A stretch of 42,850 nt of DNA, taken from the UHGV virus genome UHGV-0182515. One strand, given 5' to 3'. The stretch is from a virus. This document shows positions 16,151-41,318 of the stretch, in pieces. A program made the position numbers and the translations under genes. The notes beneath the pieces are model-generated. The model was not told where the DNA came from and ran no database searches. It saw nothing but the letters and a program-made list of their open reading frames with translations. Positions within the stretch are counted from its first letter, which is position 1; the number at the start of each line of letters is the position of its first letter.

Positions 16151-16335
16151 ACGCCACAATTCAAACGATACCAGAGCTTCTTATCCAGACACGAGGCAAT
16201 CAGACCGAAGTGGCGAGGATGCTTTCCTGCGCAAGAGGAACAGTGCTCAAGTACAACCGAGACAGCAAAGGTGAGCGTCACGTAATAGTTAACGGCGTCC
16301 TGATGGTCAAACAGGGCAAGAGGGGTAGACCATGA
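16147..16335 (+). CDS. ninH: NinH-like protein
   Basis: ..GNQTEVARMLSCARGTVLKY... resembles lambda NinH (GNQTEVARRLKCSRGTVRKY). Confidence 0.65.
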   Translation: MNATIQTIPELLIQTRGNQTEVARMLSCARGTVLKYNRDSKGERHVIVNGVLMVKQGKRGRP

Positions 16336-16955
16336 GACTCGAAAGTGTAGCTAAATTTCATTCGCCAAAAAGCCCGATGATGAGTGACTCACCACGGGCC
16401 ACGGCGTCTGACTCTCTTTCCGGTACTGATGTGATGGCTGCTATGGGGATGGCACAATCACAAGCCGGATTCGGAATGGCTGCATTCTGCGGTAAGCATG
16501 AACTCAGCCAGAACGACAAACAAAAGGCTATCAACTATCTGATGCAATTTGCACACAAGGTATCGGGGAAATACCGTGGTGTGGCAAAGCTCGAAGGAAA
16601 TACTAAGGCAAAGGTACTGCAAGTGCTCGCAACATTCGCTTATGCGGATTATTGCCGTAGTGCCGCGACGCCGGGCGCAAGATGCAGAGATTGCCACGGT
16701 ACAGGCCGTGCGGTTGATATAGCCAAAACAGAGCAGTGGGGGAGAGTTGTTGAGAAAGAATGCGGAAGATGCAAAGGTGTCGGCTATTCAAGAATGCCAG
16801 CAAGCGCCGCATATCGCGCTGTAACGATGCTAATCCCAAACCTTACTCAACCCACCTGGTCACGCACTGTTAAGCCGCTGTATGACTCTCTGGTGGTGCA
16901 ATGCCACAAAGAAGAGTCAATCGCAGACAACATATTGAATGCGGTCACACGTTAG
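16332..16955 (+). CDS. Q: Late-gene antiterminator Q
   Basis: MRLESVAKFHSPKSPMMSDSPRATASD... with a Cys-rich zinc site; essentially lambda Q. Confidence 0.9.
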   Translation: MRLESVAKFHSPKSPMMSDSPRATASDSLSGTDVMAAMGMAQSQAGFGMAAFCGKHELSQNDKQKAINYLMQFAHKVSGKYRGVAKLEGNTKAKVLQVLATFAYADYCRSAATPGARCRDCHGTGRAVDIAKTEQWGRVVEKECGRCKGVGYSRMPASAAYRAVTMLIPNLTQPTWSRTVKPLYDSLVVQCHKEESIADNILNAVTR

Positions 16956-16997: not shown

Positions 16998-17026
16998 TTG
17001 ACTTATTGAATAAAGTTGGGTAAATT
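16998..17026 (+). promoter_or_regulatory. Late promoter pR' (-35 TTGACT, 17-bp spacer, -10 TAAATT) with the overlapping qut region
   Basis: ATTGACTTATTGAATAAAGTTGGGTAAATTTGAC matches lambda pR'. Confidence 0.8.
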
Positions 17027-17062
17027 TGACCTAACGATGGATAAATGCACTCGTTAAATAAA

Positions 17063-17090
17063 GCCCTGAGTTAATAGCTCGGGGCTTTTT
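17063..17090 (+). terminator. tR' terminator (end of the short 6S-type late leader transcript)
   Basis: Hairpin gccctgag/ctcggggc followed by TTTTT, about 55 nt downstream of the pR' start. Confidence 0.7.
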
Positions 17091-17388
17091 GCGTTTTAAG
17101 CACGGCCTTTCTGAAAGCACATCAAACCAAATACCAGACAGACCAAAATAATCACCTTATCCGCTGTGGCTACGGTGCGGTGTGCTTTGCATAAAACAAA
17201 ACCAGCTCAATGGCTGCCTTCGTGAAATCGGGTGGCAGGAGGTTGCGCTAACAACCTCCTGCCGTTTTGCCCGTGCATATCGGTCACGAACAAATCTGAT
17301 TACTAAACACAGTAGCCTGGATTTGTTCTATCAGTAATCGACCTTATTCCTAATTAAATAGAGCAAATCCCCTTATTGGGGGTAAGAC

Positions 17389-17712
17389 ATGAAGATGCCA
17401 GAAAAACATGACCTGTTAGCCGCCATTCTCGCGGCAAAGGAACAAGGAATCGGGGCAATCCTTGCGTTTGCAATGGCGTACCTTCGCGGCAGATACAATG
17501 GCGGTGCGTTTACAAAAACAGTAATCGACGCAACGATGTGCGCCATTATCGCCTGGTTCATTCGTGACCTTCTCGACTTCGCCGGACTAAGTAGCAATCT
17601 CGCTTATATAACGAGCGTGTTCATCGGCTACATCGGTACTGACTCGATTGGTTCGCTTATCAAACGCTTCGCTGCTAAAAAAGCCGGAGTAGAAGATGGT
17701 GGAAATCAATAA
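17389..17712 (+). CDS. S: Holin S (class I, dual-start)
   Basis: [34 protein letters not shown].. matches lambda S, including the Met1-Lys2-Met3 dual start. Confidence 0.9.
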
Positions 17713-18172
17713 TCAACGTAAGGCGTTCCTCGATATGCTGGCGTGGTCGGAGGGAACTGATAACGGACGTCAGAAAACCAGAAATCATGGTTATGACGTC
17801 ATTGTTGGCGGAGAGCTATTCACTGATTACTCCGATCACCCTCGCAAACTTGTCACGCTAAACCCAAAACTCAAATCAACAGCAGCCGGACGTTACCAGC
17901 TTCTTTCCCGTTGGTGGGATGCCTACCGCAAGCAGCTTGGACTGAAAGACTTCTCTCCGAAAAGCCAGGACGCTGTGGCATTGCAACAGATTAAAGAGCG
18001 TGGCGCTTTACCGATGATTGACCGCGGCGATATTCGTCAGGCAATCGACCGTTGCAGCAATATCTGGGCTTCACTTCCGGGCGCTGGTTATGGCCAGTTC
18101 GAGCATAAGGCTGACAGCCTGATTGCAAAATTCAAAGAAGCTGGCGGAACGGTCAGAGAGATTGAGGTATGA
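17696..18172 (+). CDS. R: Endolysin R (lytic transglycosylase)
   Basis: [42 protein letters not shown].. matches lambda R. Confidence 0.9.
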
Positions 18173-18606
18173 GCAGAGTAACCGCGATTATATCTGCTCT
18201 GATTATCTGCATCGTCGTCTGTCTGTCGTGGGCGGTCAATCATTACCGTGATAACGCCATCGCCTACAAAGAGCAGCGCGATAAAGCCACATCCACAATC
18301 GCTGACATGCAGAAGCGTCAACGTGATGTAGCAGAACTTGACGCCAGATACACAAAGGAGCTTGCTGATGCTAACGCGACTATCGAAAGTCTCCGTGCTG
18401 ATGTTTCTGCTGGTCGTAAGCGCCTGCAAGTCGCCGCCACCTGTGCAAAGTCAACGACCGGAGCCAGCGGCATGGGCAATGGAGAAAGCCCAAGACTTAC
18501 AGCAGATGCTGAACTCAATTATTACCGTCTCCGAATTGGAATCGACAGGATAACCGCGCAGGTTAACTACCTGCAGGAGTACATCAGGACTCAGTGCCTG
18601 AAATAA
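18169..18606 (+). CDS. Rz: Spanin inner-membrane subunit Rz
   Basis: [30 protein letters not shown].. has an N-terminal TM segment plus coiled coil; lambda Rz-like. Confidence 0.85.
18368..18553 (+). CDS. Rz1: Spanin outer-membrane lipoprotein subunit Rz1 (embedded in the +1 frame of Rz)
   Basis: [20 protein letters not shown] has a lipobox with Cys, followed by a Pro-rich segment; the ORF lies entirely within Rz. Confidence 0.7.
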
Positions 18607-18637
18607 TTTTTTTGCAAATCACAAAGTCCATTTAATG

Positions 18638-18662
18638 AGCCTCGCGATGCGGGGCTTTTTTT
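18638..18662 (+). terminator. Rho-independent terminator after the lysis cassette
   Basis: Hairpin gcctcgc-gat-gcggggc followed by TTTTTTT. Confidence 0.55.
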
Positions 18663-18811
18663 ACATCTGAATTTCACAGCGCATCTCACGCGCATATTAC
18701 ATCACCCGAGCCTTTCAGAAAGTTGAGCCTGAGAACTGCCGTATATGGTGGCGACCATCTCGGGGCGGCTTTTCTGTGAGACAGGCTCACTTTCTAAAAG
18801 GTAAAGACGCT

Positions 18812-19300
18812 ATGAACCAATTAGAAGAAAAGCTTCAAAGAATGATTTCCTTATACAAGGAAGATAACTGCCAAAAAGTTCCTGAAAACATCGCAGAGTT
18901 AATGGAATTGGCAAGTGAATTTTCTGGCATGCTTAAGTCGTCAGGTGTTCGGTCAGCGTTCTTTGTTGAAATGCTGATGCACGGCGGACTTATGGCAACA
19001 ATGAGACGTGTAATGGAAGACCAGAGAAAAGAACCTCCTCAGGTATACGTTTTGTCATCGAAGAAAACTGGGCTAACCAAAATTGGGTATTCATCCAACA
19101 TTCCACAACGCATCAAATCGCTTGGCAACTCTGGACCAGACTGCTTGAAGCTTGAGTGCCTGATCCCTGGTGGAAGAGAAACTGAAAACATGCTTCATCG
19201 CAAATTTGCCGCAAAGAGAAAGCACGGTGAATGGTTCGCCCTGTCCAAGGATGACATTGAGGGATTGAAATCTGTAGCGATTACTTCCGATGGCTATTAA
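18812..19300 (+). CDS. T5orf172 / GIY-YIG-like domain protein (moron)
   Basis: C-terminal half PQVYVLSSKKTGLTKIGYSSN..R..SLG....E..LHRKFAAKRKHGEWF fits the T5orf172 pattern (VYVL, KIGxT, EWF); sits between the Rz terminator and the packaging genes. Confidence 0.55.
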   Translation: MNQLEEKLQRMISLYKEDNCQKVPENIAELMELASEFSGMLKSSGVRSAFFVEMLMHGGLMATMRRVMEDQRKEPPQVYVLSSKKTGLTKIGYSSNIPQRIKSLGNSGPDCLKLECLIPGGRETENMLHRKFAAKRKHGEWFALSKDDIEGLKSVAITSDGY

Positions 19301-19685
19301 TGCTTGTTTAGAGCAATTTTCATAACAACTCTTCATTACAAAGCCCATCTACTGGTGGGCTTGATAATGAAACCGTGATTTACATCCCCACAATCCGGGT
19401 ATGTAAAAGATAGTTCAGGCGAGAACGGATTTAACTAAATCTGTGCGCCACCAGTTAACGGCAGTACCACGAAACAACCCAAGCCAGTAAGTGGGGAAAT
19501 AACACTGGCAGCCACTGAAAGATGAACCTCCTGCCTTATGGCAAAAAAGATTCTTTGTGGTGGCGGACTGATGGAAAGACATCGGTTATTGCAGAGACCA
19601 TTCAATGAGTGGTCTCGACAATGGCTTATACCCTACACGGGATAACTTAACTGATATCCCTTTTAACGGATAAACGGAGCCAACA

Positions 19686-19928
19686 ATGGCAGAGATTATT
19701 CCCATGACTGAAGAACAGAAATTCCAGTTAGAGATTTACAAGCTGGTCATGAACCAGAACGCAGCCGCAGAAGAAGCATTTCAGTTCATTGGTACTGACG
19801 AACTGAAGCTTGAGCTATTCAAAATTCACTTCCAGTCAGGTGGCGCTAATTCAGATATCACGACCCGCACTATCGAAGCGGTGCGTAAATCGAAGGAAGC
19901 GTTAGACCTGTTCACTACCGGAGCATAA
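19686..19928 (+). CDS. Hypothetical small protein upstream of the terminase genes
   Basis: 80-aa acidic helical ORF with GGAG upstream. Confidence 0.4.
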   Translation: MAEIIPMTEEQKFQLEIYKLVMNQNAAAEEAFQFIGTDELKLELFKIHFQSGGANSDITTRTIEAVRKSKEALDLFTTGA

Positions 19929-20007
19929 ACATGGCAACTCAAGGTTTCGACAACCCATCCAAATTCCGCGATGAATGGGATAAGCAAGCAGAAGGGAAAT
20001 AATCAAT

Positions 20008-20433
20008 ATGGCGACTGAGAAAAAGAATGTCGGTCGCCCTTCGGATTACCTGCCGGAGGTGGCTGATGATATCTGTGCGCTGCTTGCCTCCGGGGAAAGT
20101 CTGGTTAAGGTTTGCAAGCGCCCCGGCATGCCAGCAAAGGCTACTGTATTTCGCTGGCTGTCAGAGCATGAAGAATTTAGAGACAAGTACGCGAAGGCAA
20201 CTGAGGCACGAGCTGATTCTATTTTCGAAGAGATATTCGAAATTGCTGACACTGCGATTCCAGATGCTGCTGAGGTGGCAAAGGCAAGACTTCGCGTTGA
20301 TACCCGCAAATGGGCGCTGGCCCGAATGAATCCCCGTAAGTATGGCGACAAGGTAACTAACGAGCTTGTCGGTAAGGACGGCGGCGCAATCCAGATTGAA
20401 ACATCACCGATGAGCACTCTATTCGGAAAATGA
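20008..20433 (+). CDS. Terminase small subunit (Sf6/P22-like)
   Basis: 140-aa HTH-containing protein MATEKKNVGRPSDYLPEVADDICALLASGESLVKVCKRPGMP.. immediately upstream of, and overlapping, the large terminase gene. Confidence 0.75.
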   Translation: MATEKKNVGRPSDYLPEVADDICALLASGESLVKVCKRPGMPAKATVFRWLSEHEEFRDKYAKATEARADSIFEEIFEIADTAIPDAAEVAKARLRVDTRKWALARMNPRKYGDKVTNELVGKDGGAIQIETSPMSTLFGK

Positions 20434-21845
20434 CCTCGATTAATCCTATCTTTGAACCGTTCATTGAGGCGCATCGCTACAAAGTCGCCAAAGGCGGTCG
20501 AGGTAGCGGTAAATCATGGGCAATTGCGAGGCTGCTTGTTGAAGCGGCGCGTCGGCAGCCAGTGCGTATTCTCTGCGCTCGTGAACTGCAAAACAGTATC
20601 AGCGATTCGGTAATCCGGTTGCTTGAAGACACCATAGAGCGGGAAGGGTATTCGGCTGAGTTTGAAATTCAGCGTTCAATGATTCGTCATCTCGGAACGA
20701 ATGCTGAATTCATGTTCTACGGCATAAAAAACAACCCGACGAAGATTAAATCGCTCGAAGGCATTGATATCTGCTGGGTGGAAGAAGCGGAAGCGGTAAC
20801 GAAGGAATCATGGGACATCCTGATACCAACCATCCGCAAGCCGTTTTCCGAAATATGGGTGAGCTTCAACCCGAAAAACATCCTCGACGATACCTATCAG
20901 CGATTCGTCGTAAACCCTCCTGATGATATTTGTCTGCTGACGGTGAACTACACCGACAACCCGCACTTTCCTGAAGTTCTCCGTCTGGAGATGGAAGAGT
21001 GCAAACGCAGAAATCCGACACTGTATCGTCACATCTGGCTTGGTGAGCCAGTAAGCGCAAGTGATATGGCAATCATCAAACGTGAATGGCTTGAAGCTGC
21101 TACCGATGCGCACAAGAAACTCGGATGGAAAGCGAAAGGCGCTGTTGTCTCTGCGCATGACCCATCAGATACAGGGCCGGATGCCAAAGGTTATGCATCG
21201 CGCCACGGTTCGGTAGTTAAGCGCATTGCCGAAGGTCTGCTGATGGACATCAACGAGGGTGCTGACTGGGCTACTTCGCTGGCGATTGAAGACGGCGCTG
21301 ACCACTACCTGTGGGATGGTGATGGTGTTGGTGCCGGGCTACGCAGGCAGACAACGGAAGCGTTCTCCGGCAAGAAAATCACCGCCACGATGTTCAAGGG
21401 CAGCGAATCGCCATTCGATGAAGATGCGCCATATCAGGCCGGAGCATGGGCTGATGAAGTCGTACAGGGCGACAATGTTCGCACTATTGGCGATGTATTC
21501 CGCAATAAGCGAGCGCAATTCTATTACGCGCTGGCTGACAGGCTGTATCTGACATATCGGGCGGTTGTCTACGGTGAGTATGCAGACCCAGACGACATGC
21601 TGAGTTTCGACAAAGAAGCGATAGGCGAGAAGATGCTGGAGAAGCTGTTTGCAGAACTGACGCAGATTCAGCGCAAATTCAATAATAACGGGAAGCTGGA
21701 GCTAATGACTAAGGTCGAAATGAAGCAGAAGCTCGGTATTCCATCTCCTAACCTGGCTGATGCGTTGATGATGTGTATGCATTGCCCGGAGTCGGCTGCG
21801 CAACCCGACTATTCCAGTTACTCAATTCCTTGTGGTGTAGGTTGA
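20430..21845 (+). CDS. Terminase large subunit
   Basis: Walker A KGGRGSGKS, Walker B ICWVEE, and a C-terminal nuclease domain with acidic residues. Confidence 0.9.
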   Translation: MTSINPIFEPFIEAHRYKVAKGGRGSGKSWAIARLLVEAARRQPVRILCARELQNSISDSVIRLLEDTIEREGYSAEFEIQRSMIRHLGTNAEFMFYGIKNNPTKIKSLEGIDICWVEEAEAVTKESWDILIPTIRKPFSEIWVSFNPKNILDDTYQRFVVNPPDDICLLTVNYTDNPHFPEVLRLEMEECKRRNPTLYRHIWLGEPVSASDMAIIKREWLEAATDAHKKLGWKAKGAVVSAHDPSDTGPDAKGYASRHGSVVKRIAEGLLMDINEGADWATSLAIEDGADHYLWDGDGVGAGLRRQTTEAFSGKKITATMFKGSESPFDEDAPYQAGAWADEVVQGDNVRTIGDVFRNKRAQFYYALADRLYLTYRAVVYGEYADPDDMLSFDKEAIGEKMLEKLFAELTQIQRKFNNNGKLELMTKVEMKQKLGIPSPNLADALMMCMHCPESAAQPDYSSYSIPCGVG

Positions 21846-35647: not shown

Positions 35648-35715
35648 AGTTGAAGCCCCAACTGCGGGAACAGTCAGGGCTTCTGTTGTCAGTAAATTCG
35701 TGGAGAAAAACCAAC

Positions 35716-41081: not shown

Positions 41082-41243
41082 GGGTAAAAATCCGGTGGGT
41101 AAAATTATTTTATCCACTTTTTACCCGTCATGGAGTGCGGCTGTCAACGATCTGACGTGAACCATTACGAACTGTAAATCTACGGAAGGCTTGATATTCA
41201 GGGGATTTTGCGGACTGCTACGGATGGGAGCGAACTGATAAAT

Positions 41244-41258
41244 GGTGTCCCCTGCAGG
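41244..41258. repeat. attL core candidate (15 bp, identical to 992-1006), the 3' end of argW
   Basis: Exact direct repeat read from the sequence. Confidence 0.6.
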
Positions 41259-41318
41259 AATCGAACCTGCAATTAGCCCTTAGGAGGGGCTCGTTATATC
41301 CATTTAACTAAGAGGACA
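41244..41318 (-). tRNA. argW: tRNA-Arg (anticodon CCU)
   Basis: Reverse complement GTCCTCTTAGTTAAATGGATATAACGAGCCCCTCCTAAGGGCTAATTGCAGGTTCGATTCCTGCAGGGGACACCA folds as a cloverleaf with 7-bp acceptor stem, T-loop GGTTCGATTCC, anticodon loop CUCCUAA and CCA end. Confidence 0.85.

What the first reader, a model, noticed from the sequence alone, without database searches (positions are those of the whole stretch)
18663..19370. Moron encoding a T5orf172/GIY-YIG-like protein inserted between the lysis cassette and the packaging genes
A stand-alone gene flanked by a terminator upstream (18638-18662) and a weak hairpin downstream (about 19341-19366) sits where lambda carries the lysogenic-conversion gene bor. 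Its C-terminal half carries the VYVL...KIGxT...R...E...EWF pattern of the T5orf172 family, a GIY-YIG-related putative nuclease or DNA-binding fold. The N-terminal 70 aa are an unrelated helical region. It is a candidate lysogen-expressed defence or regulatory factor.
Basis: partly seen in the sequence, partly recalled or inferred. Interest (0 to 1): 0.65.

Follow-up and report, generated by a model that had tools for sequence, protein, structure and literature searches.

The report
GIY-YIG-type nuclease gene in phage rha slot
The gene is real and encodes a small, already catalogued nuclease-fold protein of unknown function, one of many interchangeable genes that lambdoid phages plug in behind a conserved folded RNA leader between their lysis and DNA-packaging genes.

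Summary
Window 18812-19300 (+) encodes a 162-aa protein. Its C-terminal half matches Pfam MUG113 (6e-15) and T5orf172 (2.8e-10), and its model superposes best on GIY-YIG nucleases. Residues Y79, K90-I-G92, R100, E125, H129 and E140-W-F142 are invariant or nearly so in 82 distant relatives. The N-terminal 72 aa form an acidic three-helix bundle with no recognisable relatives.

RefSeq already names this protein 'GIY-YIG nuclease family protein' (HK106 gp64; PHROG 4284, function unknown).

The 'stand-alone moron' reading is only partly right. The upstream terminator and downstream hairpin belong to a conserved scaffold, not to the gene. Only about 18817-19333 is variable. The gene sits in the classical phi80/P22 rha slot.

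A ~110-nt leader (18702-18814) precedes whichever gene fills the slot: Rha, KilA-N, ANT, HNH-AP2 or T5orf172. The leader folds into a long hairpin that pairs with the Shine-Dalgarno sequence. Covariation is strong: 26 of 33 pairs show double changes, against 6.8 in shuffles. Its P22 copy is the recently reported small RNA P22F.

No promoter was found, so expression is most likely late-lytic and translationally throttled. Lysogen-expressed defence is unsupported. The most likely role is a DNA endonuclease, homing-like or Odn-like; this is inferred, not shown.

The parts
18637..18664 (+). Rho-independent terminator after Rz (stem 18637-18657 plus T run). It is part of the conserved left flank, not of the variable gene.
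   Evidence: 9-bp stem, 6 GC pairs, then TTTTTTT. Annotated as a terminator at the same place in HK106, eps34 and phi80. Homology with HK620 and eps34 starts at 18638.
18679..18693 (+). Small conserved hairpin GCGC-N7-GCGC upstream of the main leader hairpin.
   Evidence: RNAalifold on 44 leaders gives 4 pairs; the second pair is CG in 39 and UA in 3, a compensatory change.
18702..18814 (+). Structured 5' leader RNA of the rha slot. It is a long imperfect hairpin of 33 pairs. Its base helix (GCCUUU 18710-18715) pairs with the Shine-Dalgarno region (AAAGGU 18797-18802), and the ATG lies at 18812.
   Evidence: Covariance model R1 scores 120.7 bits on the + strand against 21.3 on the - strand. 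The model finds 103 matches in 96 loci. 94.5% of cells are paired, and 26 of 33 pairs show changes on both sides, against 6.8+-1.7 in shuffles and 5-10 in slid controls. 42 of 44 single-sequence MFE folds give the same hairpin. The fold z-score is -3.5. The P22 copy is sncRNA P22F.
18812..19300 (+). CDS of 162 aa plus stop: a T5orf172/MUG113 (GIY-YIG clan) protein.
18812..19027 (+). N-terminal domain, aa 1-72: an acidic (pI 5.3) three-helix bundle with no family match.
19040..19276 (+). C-terminal GIY-YIG-fold nuclease domain, aa 77-155, basic (pI 9.4). Predicted catalytic core: Y79, K90, R100, E125, H129, E140.
19341..19362 (+). Stable hairpin without a U tract, at the start of the conserved right flank (homology with HK620 and Louie resumes at 19334).
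   Evidence: The first 36 nt of the right flank alone are shared with mEp213.

Best explanation
What is shown:
- The window is a P22-like prophage at tRNA-Arg(CCU).
- Positions 18812-19300 encode a conserved, purifying-selected 162-aa protein. It has an acidic N-terminal three-helix bundle and a basic C-terminal T5orf172/MUG113 domain with the GIY-YIG nuclease fold.
- The core residues of that fold are conserved.
- The gene occupies the rha slot of lambdoid phages. This is a fixed position in the late operon between the Rz terminator and the packaging genes.
- At that position a conserved, covariation-supported leader hairpin that pairs with the ribosome-binding site precedes interchangeable genes: Rha, KilA-N, ANT, HNH-AP2 and four kinds of T5orf172 protein.

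What is inferred:
- The gene has no promoter of its own. It is transcribed late in lytic growth by Q-antiterminated read-through from pR'.
- The leader keeps its translation low. That suits products that are toxic or needed in small amounts.
- The protein is an active Mg-dependent DNA endonuclease. By analogy with ICP1 Odn and the T5orf172 homing endonucleases, its N-terminal domain supplies targeting or partner binding.
- It acts on competing DNA (co-resident or co-infecting phages, or satellites) and/or promotes its own spread by cleavage-stimulated recombination at this module boundary.
For: Gene and fold:
-.
- Odn has the same N-specificity / C-T5orf172 order. It cleaves DNA in vitro, and mutating the Glu that aligns with I-TevI's catalytic Glu (E180A) abolishes cleavage (PMC8263062).
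- T5orf172 homing endonuclease genes are sporadic and sit next to terminase genes in 35% of neighbourhoods (PMC10448857).

Distribution here:
- 80 of 5426 E. coli genomes hold the full locus, while 2721 hold at least part of the query.
- 10 of about 130 leader-bearing loci carry this gene.
- The ORF is 99.6% identical between this P22-like phage and the HK97-like siphovirus HK106, although their leaders are only 89% identical. That points to recent cassette transfer, with the junction at the ATG.
- Homologues at 48% and 74% amino-acid identity keep the same place, after quite different lysis genes and before the terminase genes.
- HNH_3(+AP2) genes, the other homing endonuclease class described in PMC10448857, use the same slot.

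Expression:
- No + strand promoter is predicted.
- The gene has the same orientation as the late genes and lies between Rz and the small terminase gene.
- Leader structure.
- Abundant G.U pairs and the strand asymmetry of the model score indicate a + strand RNA.
- The P22 leader RNA, P22F, is detected only in infected cells.
Against: - No nuclease assay or transcript data exist for this phage.
- 87% of the T5orf172 homing endonucleases surveyed carry Zn-finger DNA-binding domains. This protein has none, and its N-domain is acidic with only generic fold matches, so targeting is unexplained.
- The YIG tyrosine is a lysine, and the helix-1 His/Tyr is absent. Both are also true of Odn.
- Most occupants of the slot are regulators rather than nucleases, so a shared slot function may not be DNA cleavage.
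- A T5orf172-related protein can be domesticated as a repressor, as in CapR.
- No empty target allele was found; the alternative alleles carry other genes.
- The pair counts were made on an alignment fitted to the model.
- The promoter scan covers only sigma-70 consensus sites.
Confidence: 0.45

Rival explanations
1. One reading: a lysogenic-conversion moron, expressed from the prophage, that defends the lysogen against other phages or regulates the host.
For: - The ORF has low G+C, 43% against 50-51% for its neighbours.
- Its distribution is patchy.
- It gives a weak PADLOC hit to the candidate PDC-S57.
- The same region in phage Louie carries a gene annotated as anti-CRISPR, so this is an accessory-gene hot spot.
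Against: - No promoter is predicted, and no promoter-like hexamers are conserved in the leader.
- The gene is co-oriented with the late operon.
- It is preceded by a terminator and by a terminator-like hairpin inside the leader, which would block read-through in a lysogen.
- Its ribosome-binding site is sequestered.
- The PADLOC hit covers only the shared domain, positions 3-83 of a 212-position profile. PD-T4-3 itself was not matched.
Confidence: 0.12
2. A DNA-binding regulator rather than a nuclease. In this view the protein is functionally equivalent to the Rha, KilA-N and ANT proteins that share the slot (an antirepressor-like or transcription-modulating late protein), and its T5orf172 domain is used for binding only, as in the domesticated endonuclease CapR.
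For: - About 80% of slot occupants are Rha, KilA-N or ANT proteins.
- T5orf172 is often fused to Bro-N or KilA-N in viral regulators; the BFVD hits include baculovirus and ascovirus Bro proteins.
- CapR is a precedent.
Against: - The full set of predicted catalytic residues (Y79, R100, E125, plus H129 and E140) is invariant or nearly so in 82 distant relatives. That is not expected after loss of catalysis.
- There is no detectable similarity between the N-domain and any domain of the other slot proteins.
Confidence: 0.2
3. A DNA-processing helper for the phage's own late DNA metabolism. Examples would be trimming branched concatemers before headful packaging, or assisting terminase as the HNH protein gp74 does in HK97-like phages.
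For: - Late-operon position directly upstream of the packaging genes in every context examined.
- The best structural neighbours are the structure-specific endonuclease Slx1 and its homologue HIGLE.
- HNH genes occupy the same slot.
- In a Klebsiella prophage the gene overlaps by 4 nt the start of a DNA/RNA non-specific endonuclease gene.
Against: - The gene is dispensable: most relatives with the same packaging genes lack it.
- HK106 carries both this gene and its own HNH gp74 homologue.
Confidence: 0.12

Closest known systems
ICP1 Odn (Gp88), origin-directed T5orf172 nuclease (PMC8263062)
   Same: Both are small phage proteins with an N-terminal non-catalytic domain and a C-terminal T5orf172 domain. 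Both keep the Arg and Glu of the GIY-YIG core and lack the helix-1 His/Tyr. Both are accessory genes present in only some isolates.
   Different: Odn's N-domain is a RepA_N DNA-binding domain copied from its target satellite. Here the N-domain is an acidic three-helix bundle with no relatives outside this ~160-aa family. No target is known, and no activity has been shown.
Free-standing T5orf172 homing endonuclease genes of ICP1, T5-like and other phages (PMC10448857)
   Same: Same nuclease domain family, sporadic distribution, location at a boundary of genetic exchange next to terminase genes, and co-occurrence of HNH-AP2 genes in the same kind of site.
   Different: Those proteins carry one or more CapR, DUF723 or DUF4397 Zn-finger DNA-binding domains in 87% of cases; none is present here. 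Here the alternative alleles are other genes, not an empty target site. Homing has not been tested.
rha locus of phi80 and P22 (Rha, inhibitory for phage growth in IHF-deficient hosts; cited in PMC4936722)
   Same: Same genomic slot, same upstream terminator and same structured leader ending at the start codon (phi80 139 bits, P22 56 bits with model R1).
   Different: The encoded protein is unrelated (Phage_pRha +/- ORF11CD3 against T5orf172). No Rha phenotype is known for this gene.
P22 small non-coding RNA P22F (PMC13397905)
   Same: P22F (89 nt, + strand, ending 6 nt before the rha start codon) maps onto the P22 copy of the leader hairpin (L137 681-769, within the model match at 664-776).
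   Different: The paper lists it as a small RNA of no known function. Its conserved fold, its pairing with the ribosome-binding site and its role as a common leader for swappable genes come from this analysis. The window's leader is a different sequence subtype.
Lambda bor, the classical moron between Rz and cos
   Same: An accessory gene located after the lysis cassette.
   Different: bor lies on the opposite strand, has its own promoter and is expressed in lysogens. This gene is co-oriented with the late operon, has no detectable promoter and sits behind a leader that sequesters its ribosome-binding site.
Leaders that occlude a ribosome-binding site in temperate phages: the lambda N leader with its RNase III site, and Gifsy-1 IsrK upstream of orf45-anrP (own knowledge; IsrK is also raised in PMC13397905)
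   Same: A stable structure in the 5' leader of a phage gene whose product is harmful in excess. For IsrK the leader is also seen as a discrete small RNA.
   Different: There is no sequence or Rfam relationship. Whether RNase III, a trans-acting RNA or nothing at all opens the hairpin is unknown.

Membership tests
T5orf172 / MUG113 (Pfam GIY-YIG clan) | Profile match above the curated cut-off | tested here: met
   PF13455 scores 56 bits (cut-off 22.3) and PF10544 scores 41 bits (cut-off 20).
T5orf172 / MUG113 (Pfam GIY-YIG clan) | GIY-YIG alpha/beta fold (three-stranded sheet packed against helices) | tested here: met
T5orf172 / MUG113 (Pfam GIY-YIG clan) | Core residues: Tyr in strand 1, Arg in helix 1, catalytic Glu after strand 3 | tested here: met
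   R100 and E125 are invariant and Y79 is over 90% conserved in 82 relatives. Equivalence to I-TevI E75 and Odn E180 is inferred from position in the fold and was not superposed residue by residue.
T5orf172 / MUG113 (Pfam GIY-YIG clan) | Canonical second-motif tyrosine (YIG) | tested here: not met
   The motif is K90-I-G, as is usual for T5orf172. The classical PF01541 model scores only E 0.19.
T5orf172 / MUG113 (Pfam GIY-YIG clan) | Metal-dependent DNA cleavage | not testable with these tools
   Needs purified protein.
Free-standing homing endonuclease gene | Separate sequence-specific DNA-binding domain | tested here: not met
   No Zn-finger, NUMOD, AP2 or HTH hit. Only one conserved Cys. 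The N-domain is acidic and matches only generic helical bundles.
Free-standing homing endonuclease gene | Sporadic presence among close relatives, at a recombination boundary near essential genes | tested here: met
   The ORF is 99.6% identical in an HK97-like and a P22-like phage.
Free-standing homing endonuclease gene | Cleaves the cognate allele that lacks it, with biased inheritance | not testable with these tools
   No empty allele was seen; the other alleles hold Rha, KilA-N and similar genes.
Moron (autonomous promoter-gene-terminator unit; own knowledge of the Hendrix definition) | Own promoter | tested here: not met
   No sigma-70-like site on the + strand in 17000-20500. The region upstream of the leader hairpin is variable. 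Other promoter types were not covered.
Moron (autonomous promoter-gene-terminator unit; own knowledge of the Hendrix definition) | Own terminator | tested here: not met
   The hairpin at 19341-19362 has no U tract and lies in the flank shared with phages that carry other genes.
Moron (autonomous promoter-gene-terminator unit; own knowledge of the Hendrix definition) | Present or absent between otherwise conserved neighbours, with deviant composition | tested here: met
Known anti-phage defence systems (PADLOC-DB 2.0) | Full-length match to a defence protein model | tested here: not met
   Only PDC-S57 (a candidate system) at E 7e-6, covering profile positions 3-83 of 212.
rha-slot leader RNA (P22F-like) | Long hairpin ending about 10 nt before the start codon, with the base helix pairing the Shine-Dalgarno region, located after the Rz terminator | tested here: met

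The most novel reading that the evidence does not exclude
The conserved leader could be a dedicated riboregulatory 'socket' of lambdoid late operons. It would hold a set of interchangeable, potentially toxic DNA-targeting genes (Rha, KilA-N, ANT, HNH-AP2, T5orf172) translationally silent until a cue opens it. Candidate cues are RNase III or RNase E processing, or the released P22F-like RNA acting in trans as IsrK does. In that reading the T5orf172 protein here would be a nuclease weapon used during lytic growth against co-resident prophages, satellites or co-infecting phages.
Probability: 0.25. Interest if true: 0.65.

Novelty: new member of a known kind. Interest (0 to 1): 0.4.

Why it matters
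The gene alone is ordinary. It is a catalogued but uncharacterised member of the very large T5orf172/MUG113 family: 38,349 cluster representatives match at E <= 0.001.

What adds value is its setting. It shows that lambdoid phages from at least six enterobacterial genera keep one fixed, structured 5' leader and exchange the gene behind it, with the recombination junction at the start codon. Four consequences follow:
- It gives a testable handle on the old Rha/IHF puzzle.
- It suggests a function for the newly reported P22 small RNA P22F.
- It corrects the annotated starts of P22 orf201 and phi80 rha.
- It identifies a compact set of alternative late genes that probably serve one ecological purpose, such as conflict with other mobile elements.

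If the protein is an active nuclease with a new kind of targeting domain, it would extend the Odn / homing endonuclease paradigm to temperate coliphages.

Tried and rejected
- Sequence search of PDB with the family profile gave nothing below E 0.9.
- NCBIfam gave no family.
- Rfam, at gathering threshold and at E <= 5, has no family for the leader or the downstream region. Only chance-level hits to isrJ, OmrA-B and Proteo-phage-1 appeared.
- RNAalifold on a plain MAFFT alignment recovered only the inner half of the hairpin, because 1-nt indels misregistered the 3' strand. A covariance-model alignment solved this.
- I tested whether the downstream non-coding region is a remnant of rha. It is not: in P22 the homologous stretch starts only 10 nt before the rha stop and is intergenic.
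- I tested whether the N-terminal domain is related to ORF11CD3, P63C, ANT or any other part of the other slot proteins. hhalign probabilities were all below 4%.
- The Henthorn & Friedman 1995 rha paper could not be obtained, so the IHF link rests on secondary citation and my own knowledge.
- The afdb50 fold library was unavailable.
- One pattern hit (L075) was a chance match and was removed. L097 and L120 gave no credible downstream ORF.

Full report
CONTEXT. The window is a P22-like (CUS-3 / Kapi1 / Sf101-like) prophage. Its late half is 95-96% identical to those phages. It carries the P22-type sar RNA at 35648-35715 and ends next to a tRNA-Arg(CCU) gene. Around the finding the gene order is: Q (16332-16955), holin, endolysin, Rz (18169-18606), the gene in question, a DUF2560 gene (19686-19928), small terminase (20008-20433) and large terminase (20430-21845).

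The ORF runs to 19300. The start that RefSeq uses, and that is conserved in position in all related loci, is ATG 18812, giving 162 aa. Residues 78-151 match Pfam MUG113 (56 bits, cut-off 22.3) and T5orf172 (41 bits, cut-off 20). The classical GIY-YIG model is sub-threshold. The protein matches PHROG 4284 (function unknown) over its full length at 9e-88.

The gene is under purifying selection in both halves (dN/dS 0.077 against a Klebsiella homologue). It has lower G+C (43%) than its neighbours (50-51%).

IT IS ALREADY CATALOGUED. Identical or nearly identical proteins are named 'GIY-YIG nuclease family protein' in RefSeq. Examples are E. coli LS45 WP_016245257.1 and HK106 gp64, and a 30%-identical family member is eps34 gp68. 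Eighty of 5426 complete E. coli genomes hold the whole locus. No function has been published for it in the literature I could search.

THE PROTEIN. The full-length AF2 model (pLDDT 87) has three long helices (3-20, 23-43, 49-71), followed by a beta-beta-alpha-beta-alpha unit.

Across those 82 relatives K90, I91, G92, R100, E125, H129, E140, W141 and F142 are invariant, and Y79, R136 and G139 nearly so. This is the pattern expected of an active T5orf172 enzyme. In ICP1 Odn the same domain sits C-terminal to a targeting domain and cleaves DNA in vitro. Changing the Glu aligned with I-TevI's catalytic Glu (E180A) abolishes activity in vitro and in vivo (PMC8263062). That E125 is the equivalent residue is my inference from its position after strand 3.

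The N-terminal domain is acidic (pI 5.3, against 9.4 for the C-domain). It has only generic helical-bundle neighbours. It is shared only with a small set of ~160-aa proteins of the same architecture. It is unrelated to any part of the other genes found at this site. What it binds is unknown.

THE GENE IS NOT A SELF-CONTAINED MORON; IT FILLS THE RHA SLOT. Pairwise comparison with other phages shows that only about 18817-19333 is variable. The left flank, 18638-18816, comprises the terminator and a 150-nt leader that runs up to and includes the ATG. It is 86-88% identical in HK620, where a KilA-N gene follows, and in eps34. The right flank resumes at 19334 in HK620 and Louie and contains the 'weak hairpin'.

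The leader alone is found in at least 151 phage records: Stx-converting phages, P22-likes, phi80, HK106, and Klebsiella, Enterobacter, Hafnia and Citrobacter phages. It is also in at least 120 IMG/VR contigs. In phi80 and P22 it precedes rha.

Behind the leader the start codon nearly always lies about 20-24 nt after the motif CAGGNTC. The genes found there are:
- Rha + ORF11CD3 (67 of about 130 loci).
- KilA-N (+ORF11CD3 or +P63C).
- ANT.
- Rha alone.
- HNH_3 (+AP2).
- Four distinct T5orf172/MUG113 proteins. This one accounts for 10 loci. One of the other three has the nuclease domain at the N-terminus.

Homologues of this gene at 48% and 74% identity keep the same position after unrelated lysis genes, and the 48% one keeps the leader at 71% nucleotide identity although its coding DNA is no longer alignable. 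A 35% homologue lies instead among unannotated genes with no lysis or terminase genes in view.

THE LEADER IS A CONSERVED RNA STRUCTURE THAT COVERS THE RIBOSOME-BINDING SITE. The window's leader folds better than shuffles (z -3.5). Forty-two of 44 diverse leaders, folded one by one, give the same ~100-nt hairpin. Its base helix pairs (G)CCUUU with the AAAGG(U) of the Shine-Dalgarno region.

I built a covariance model from 12 sequences and my explicit structure. It finds 103 matches in 96 loci. On the 74 distinct sequences:
- 94.5% of cells are paired.
- 26 of 33 pairs show changes on both sides, against 6.8 +/- 1.7 in shuffles (0 of 500 reach it) and 5-10 when the partners are slid by 1-3 columns.
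- The base-helix pairs themselves covary, for example UA 63 / AU 9 / CG 1.

One caveat: the alignment was fitted to the model. The independent single-sequence folds and the slid controls argue that the signal is real.

Frequent G.U pairs, and 120.7 bits on the + strand against 21.3 on the - strand, point to a + strand RNA rather than a DNA cruciform. The element is not in Rfam 15.

There is independent experimental support. A 2026 study lists an 89-nt + strand small RNA, P22F, detected only in P22-infected cells, confirmed by RT-PCR, and ending 6 nt before the rha start codon, with 'no known function' (PMC13397905). It maps inside the P22 match of my model (L137 664-776, 56 bits).

HOW THE GENE IS PROBABLY EXPRESSED (INFERENCE). 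No sigma-70-like promoter is predicted on the + strand between 17000 and 20500. The stretch of the leader upstream of the hairpins is not conserved. The gene is co-oriented with, and lies between, late genes that must be transcribed through the Rz terminator by Q-modified polymerase; this is established lambda/P22 biology (my own knowledge). So the gene is most likely transcribed late in lytic growth.

The apical part of the leader (GCCG...CGGC followed by UUUUCU) also resembles a terminator. Together with the Rz terminator, it should insulate the gene from unmodified polymerase in a lysogen. The sequestered ribosome-binding site implies low or conditional translation. That makes sense for products such as Rha (harmful to the phage in IHF-deficient hosts; PMC4936722 citing Mozola & Friedman), KilA-like proteins and nucleases. 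Whether RNase III, another factor or nothing opens the helix is unknown.

WHAT THE PROTEIN PROBABLY DOES. I rank an active DNA endonuclease of the homing-like or Odn-like kind first, at about 0.45. The reasons are:
- The catalytic core is intact.
- The distribution is sporadic.
- The ORF is 99.6% identical in an HK97-like and a P22-like phage whose leaders differ by 11%, so the cassette has moved recently with a junction at the start codon.
- It lies at a classical module boundary next to terminase genes, as 35% of T5orf172 homing endonuclease genes do.
- HNH-AP2 genes, the other homing class of that study, share the slot.

Against this reading, the protein has no recognisable DNA-binding domain and no empty target allele was found. 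The rivals are:
- A non-catalytic regulator equivalent to its Rha, KilA-N and ANT slot-mates (0.2).
- A helper nuclease for packaging or debranching (0.12).

VERDICT. The 'moron with its own terminators, like bor, expressed in the lysogen' interpretation is not supported. The gene itself is an ordinary, already annotated but uncharacterised family member. The more interesting result is its setting: a shared, covariation-supported leader RNA that serves as a fixed expression site for swappable late genes.

Noticed in passing
window 19449-19644 (within the non-coding stretch 19301-19685): The 385-nt non-coding region downstream of the gene folds far better than shuffles (z -7.7). About 19458-19600 is homologous to the 3' part of the 204-nt P22 small RNA 'P22G' (PMC13397905; 91% identical to P22 L137 1301-1498). 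The region is a mosaic of short modules that are variably present in P22-like, HK97-like and Stx phages. Its function is unknown.
   Followed up: partly
L014 3614-3708 (phi80); L013 1171-1282 (Stx2a phage); L017 8532-8627; L096 341-436; L097 6664-6759; L058 11112-11219: Second, weaker copies of the leader motif (38-59 bits) occur elsewhere in the same phages. In phi80 the copy ends exactly at the ATG of PHI80_66. The leader may therefore be a reusable module for more than one late accessory gene. The window has only one copy.
   Followed up: partly
L137 705-1310 (P22 rha/orf201) and L014 2093-2647 (phi80 rha): The annotated starts of P22 orf201 and phi80 rha lie inside the conserved leader hairpin. 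The start codons conserved across all slot genes are at L137 774 and L014 2129, so both annotations probably begin too early. This also explains why P22F is described as 'partially overlapping ORF201'.
   Followed up: partly
L008 5001-6187 (Klebsiella variicola prophage): The 74%-identical homologue overlaps by 4 nt the start of a 232-aa Endonuclease_NS (DNA/RNA non-specific endonuclease) gene, which suggests translational coupling of two nucleases. No such partner exists in the window.
   Followed up: no
L010 1586-2056 (phage Louie): In phage Louie the region between Rz and the conserved right flank lacks the leader and carries a gene annotated as an anti-CRISPR protein. The site is therefore a general accessory-gene hot spot with at least two kinds of upstream region.
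   Followed up: no
L007 5001-5483: The most distant full-length homologue found by the word-indexed search (35% identity) sits between a 468-aa and a 1719-aa gene with no Pfam annotation, and no lysis or terminase genes lie within the 10-kb locus. The family is therefore not strictly tied to the rha slot.
   Followed up: no
window 35648-35715 (-) and 41243-41317 (-): A sar antisense RNA (Rfam 91 bits) marks a P22-type immI region. A tRNA-Arg(CCU) near the end of the window is the likely integration site.
   Followed up: no
window 18679-18693: A small GCGC-N7-GCGC hairpin upstream of the main leader hairpin is conserved in nearly all leaders, with a compensatory CG to UA change in three of them. 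Its role is unknown.
   Followed up: partly
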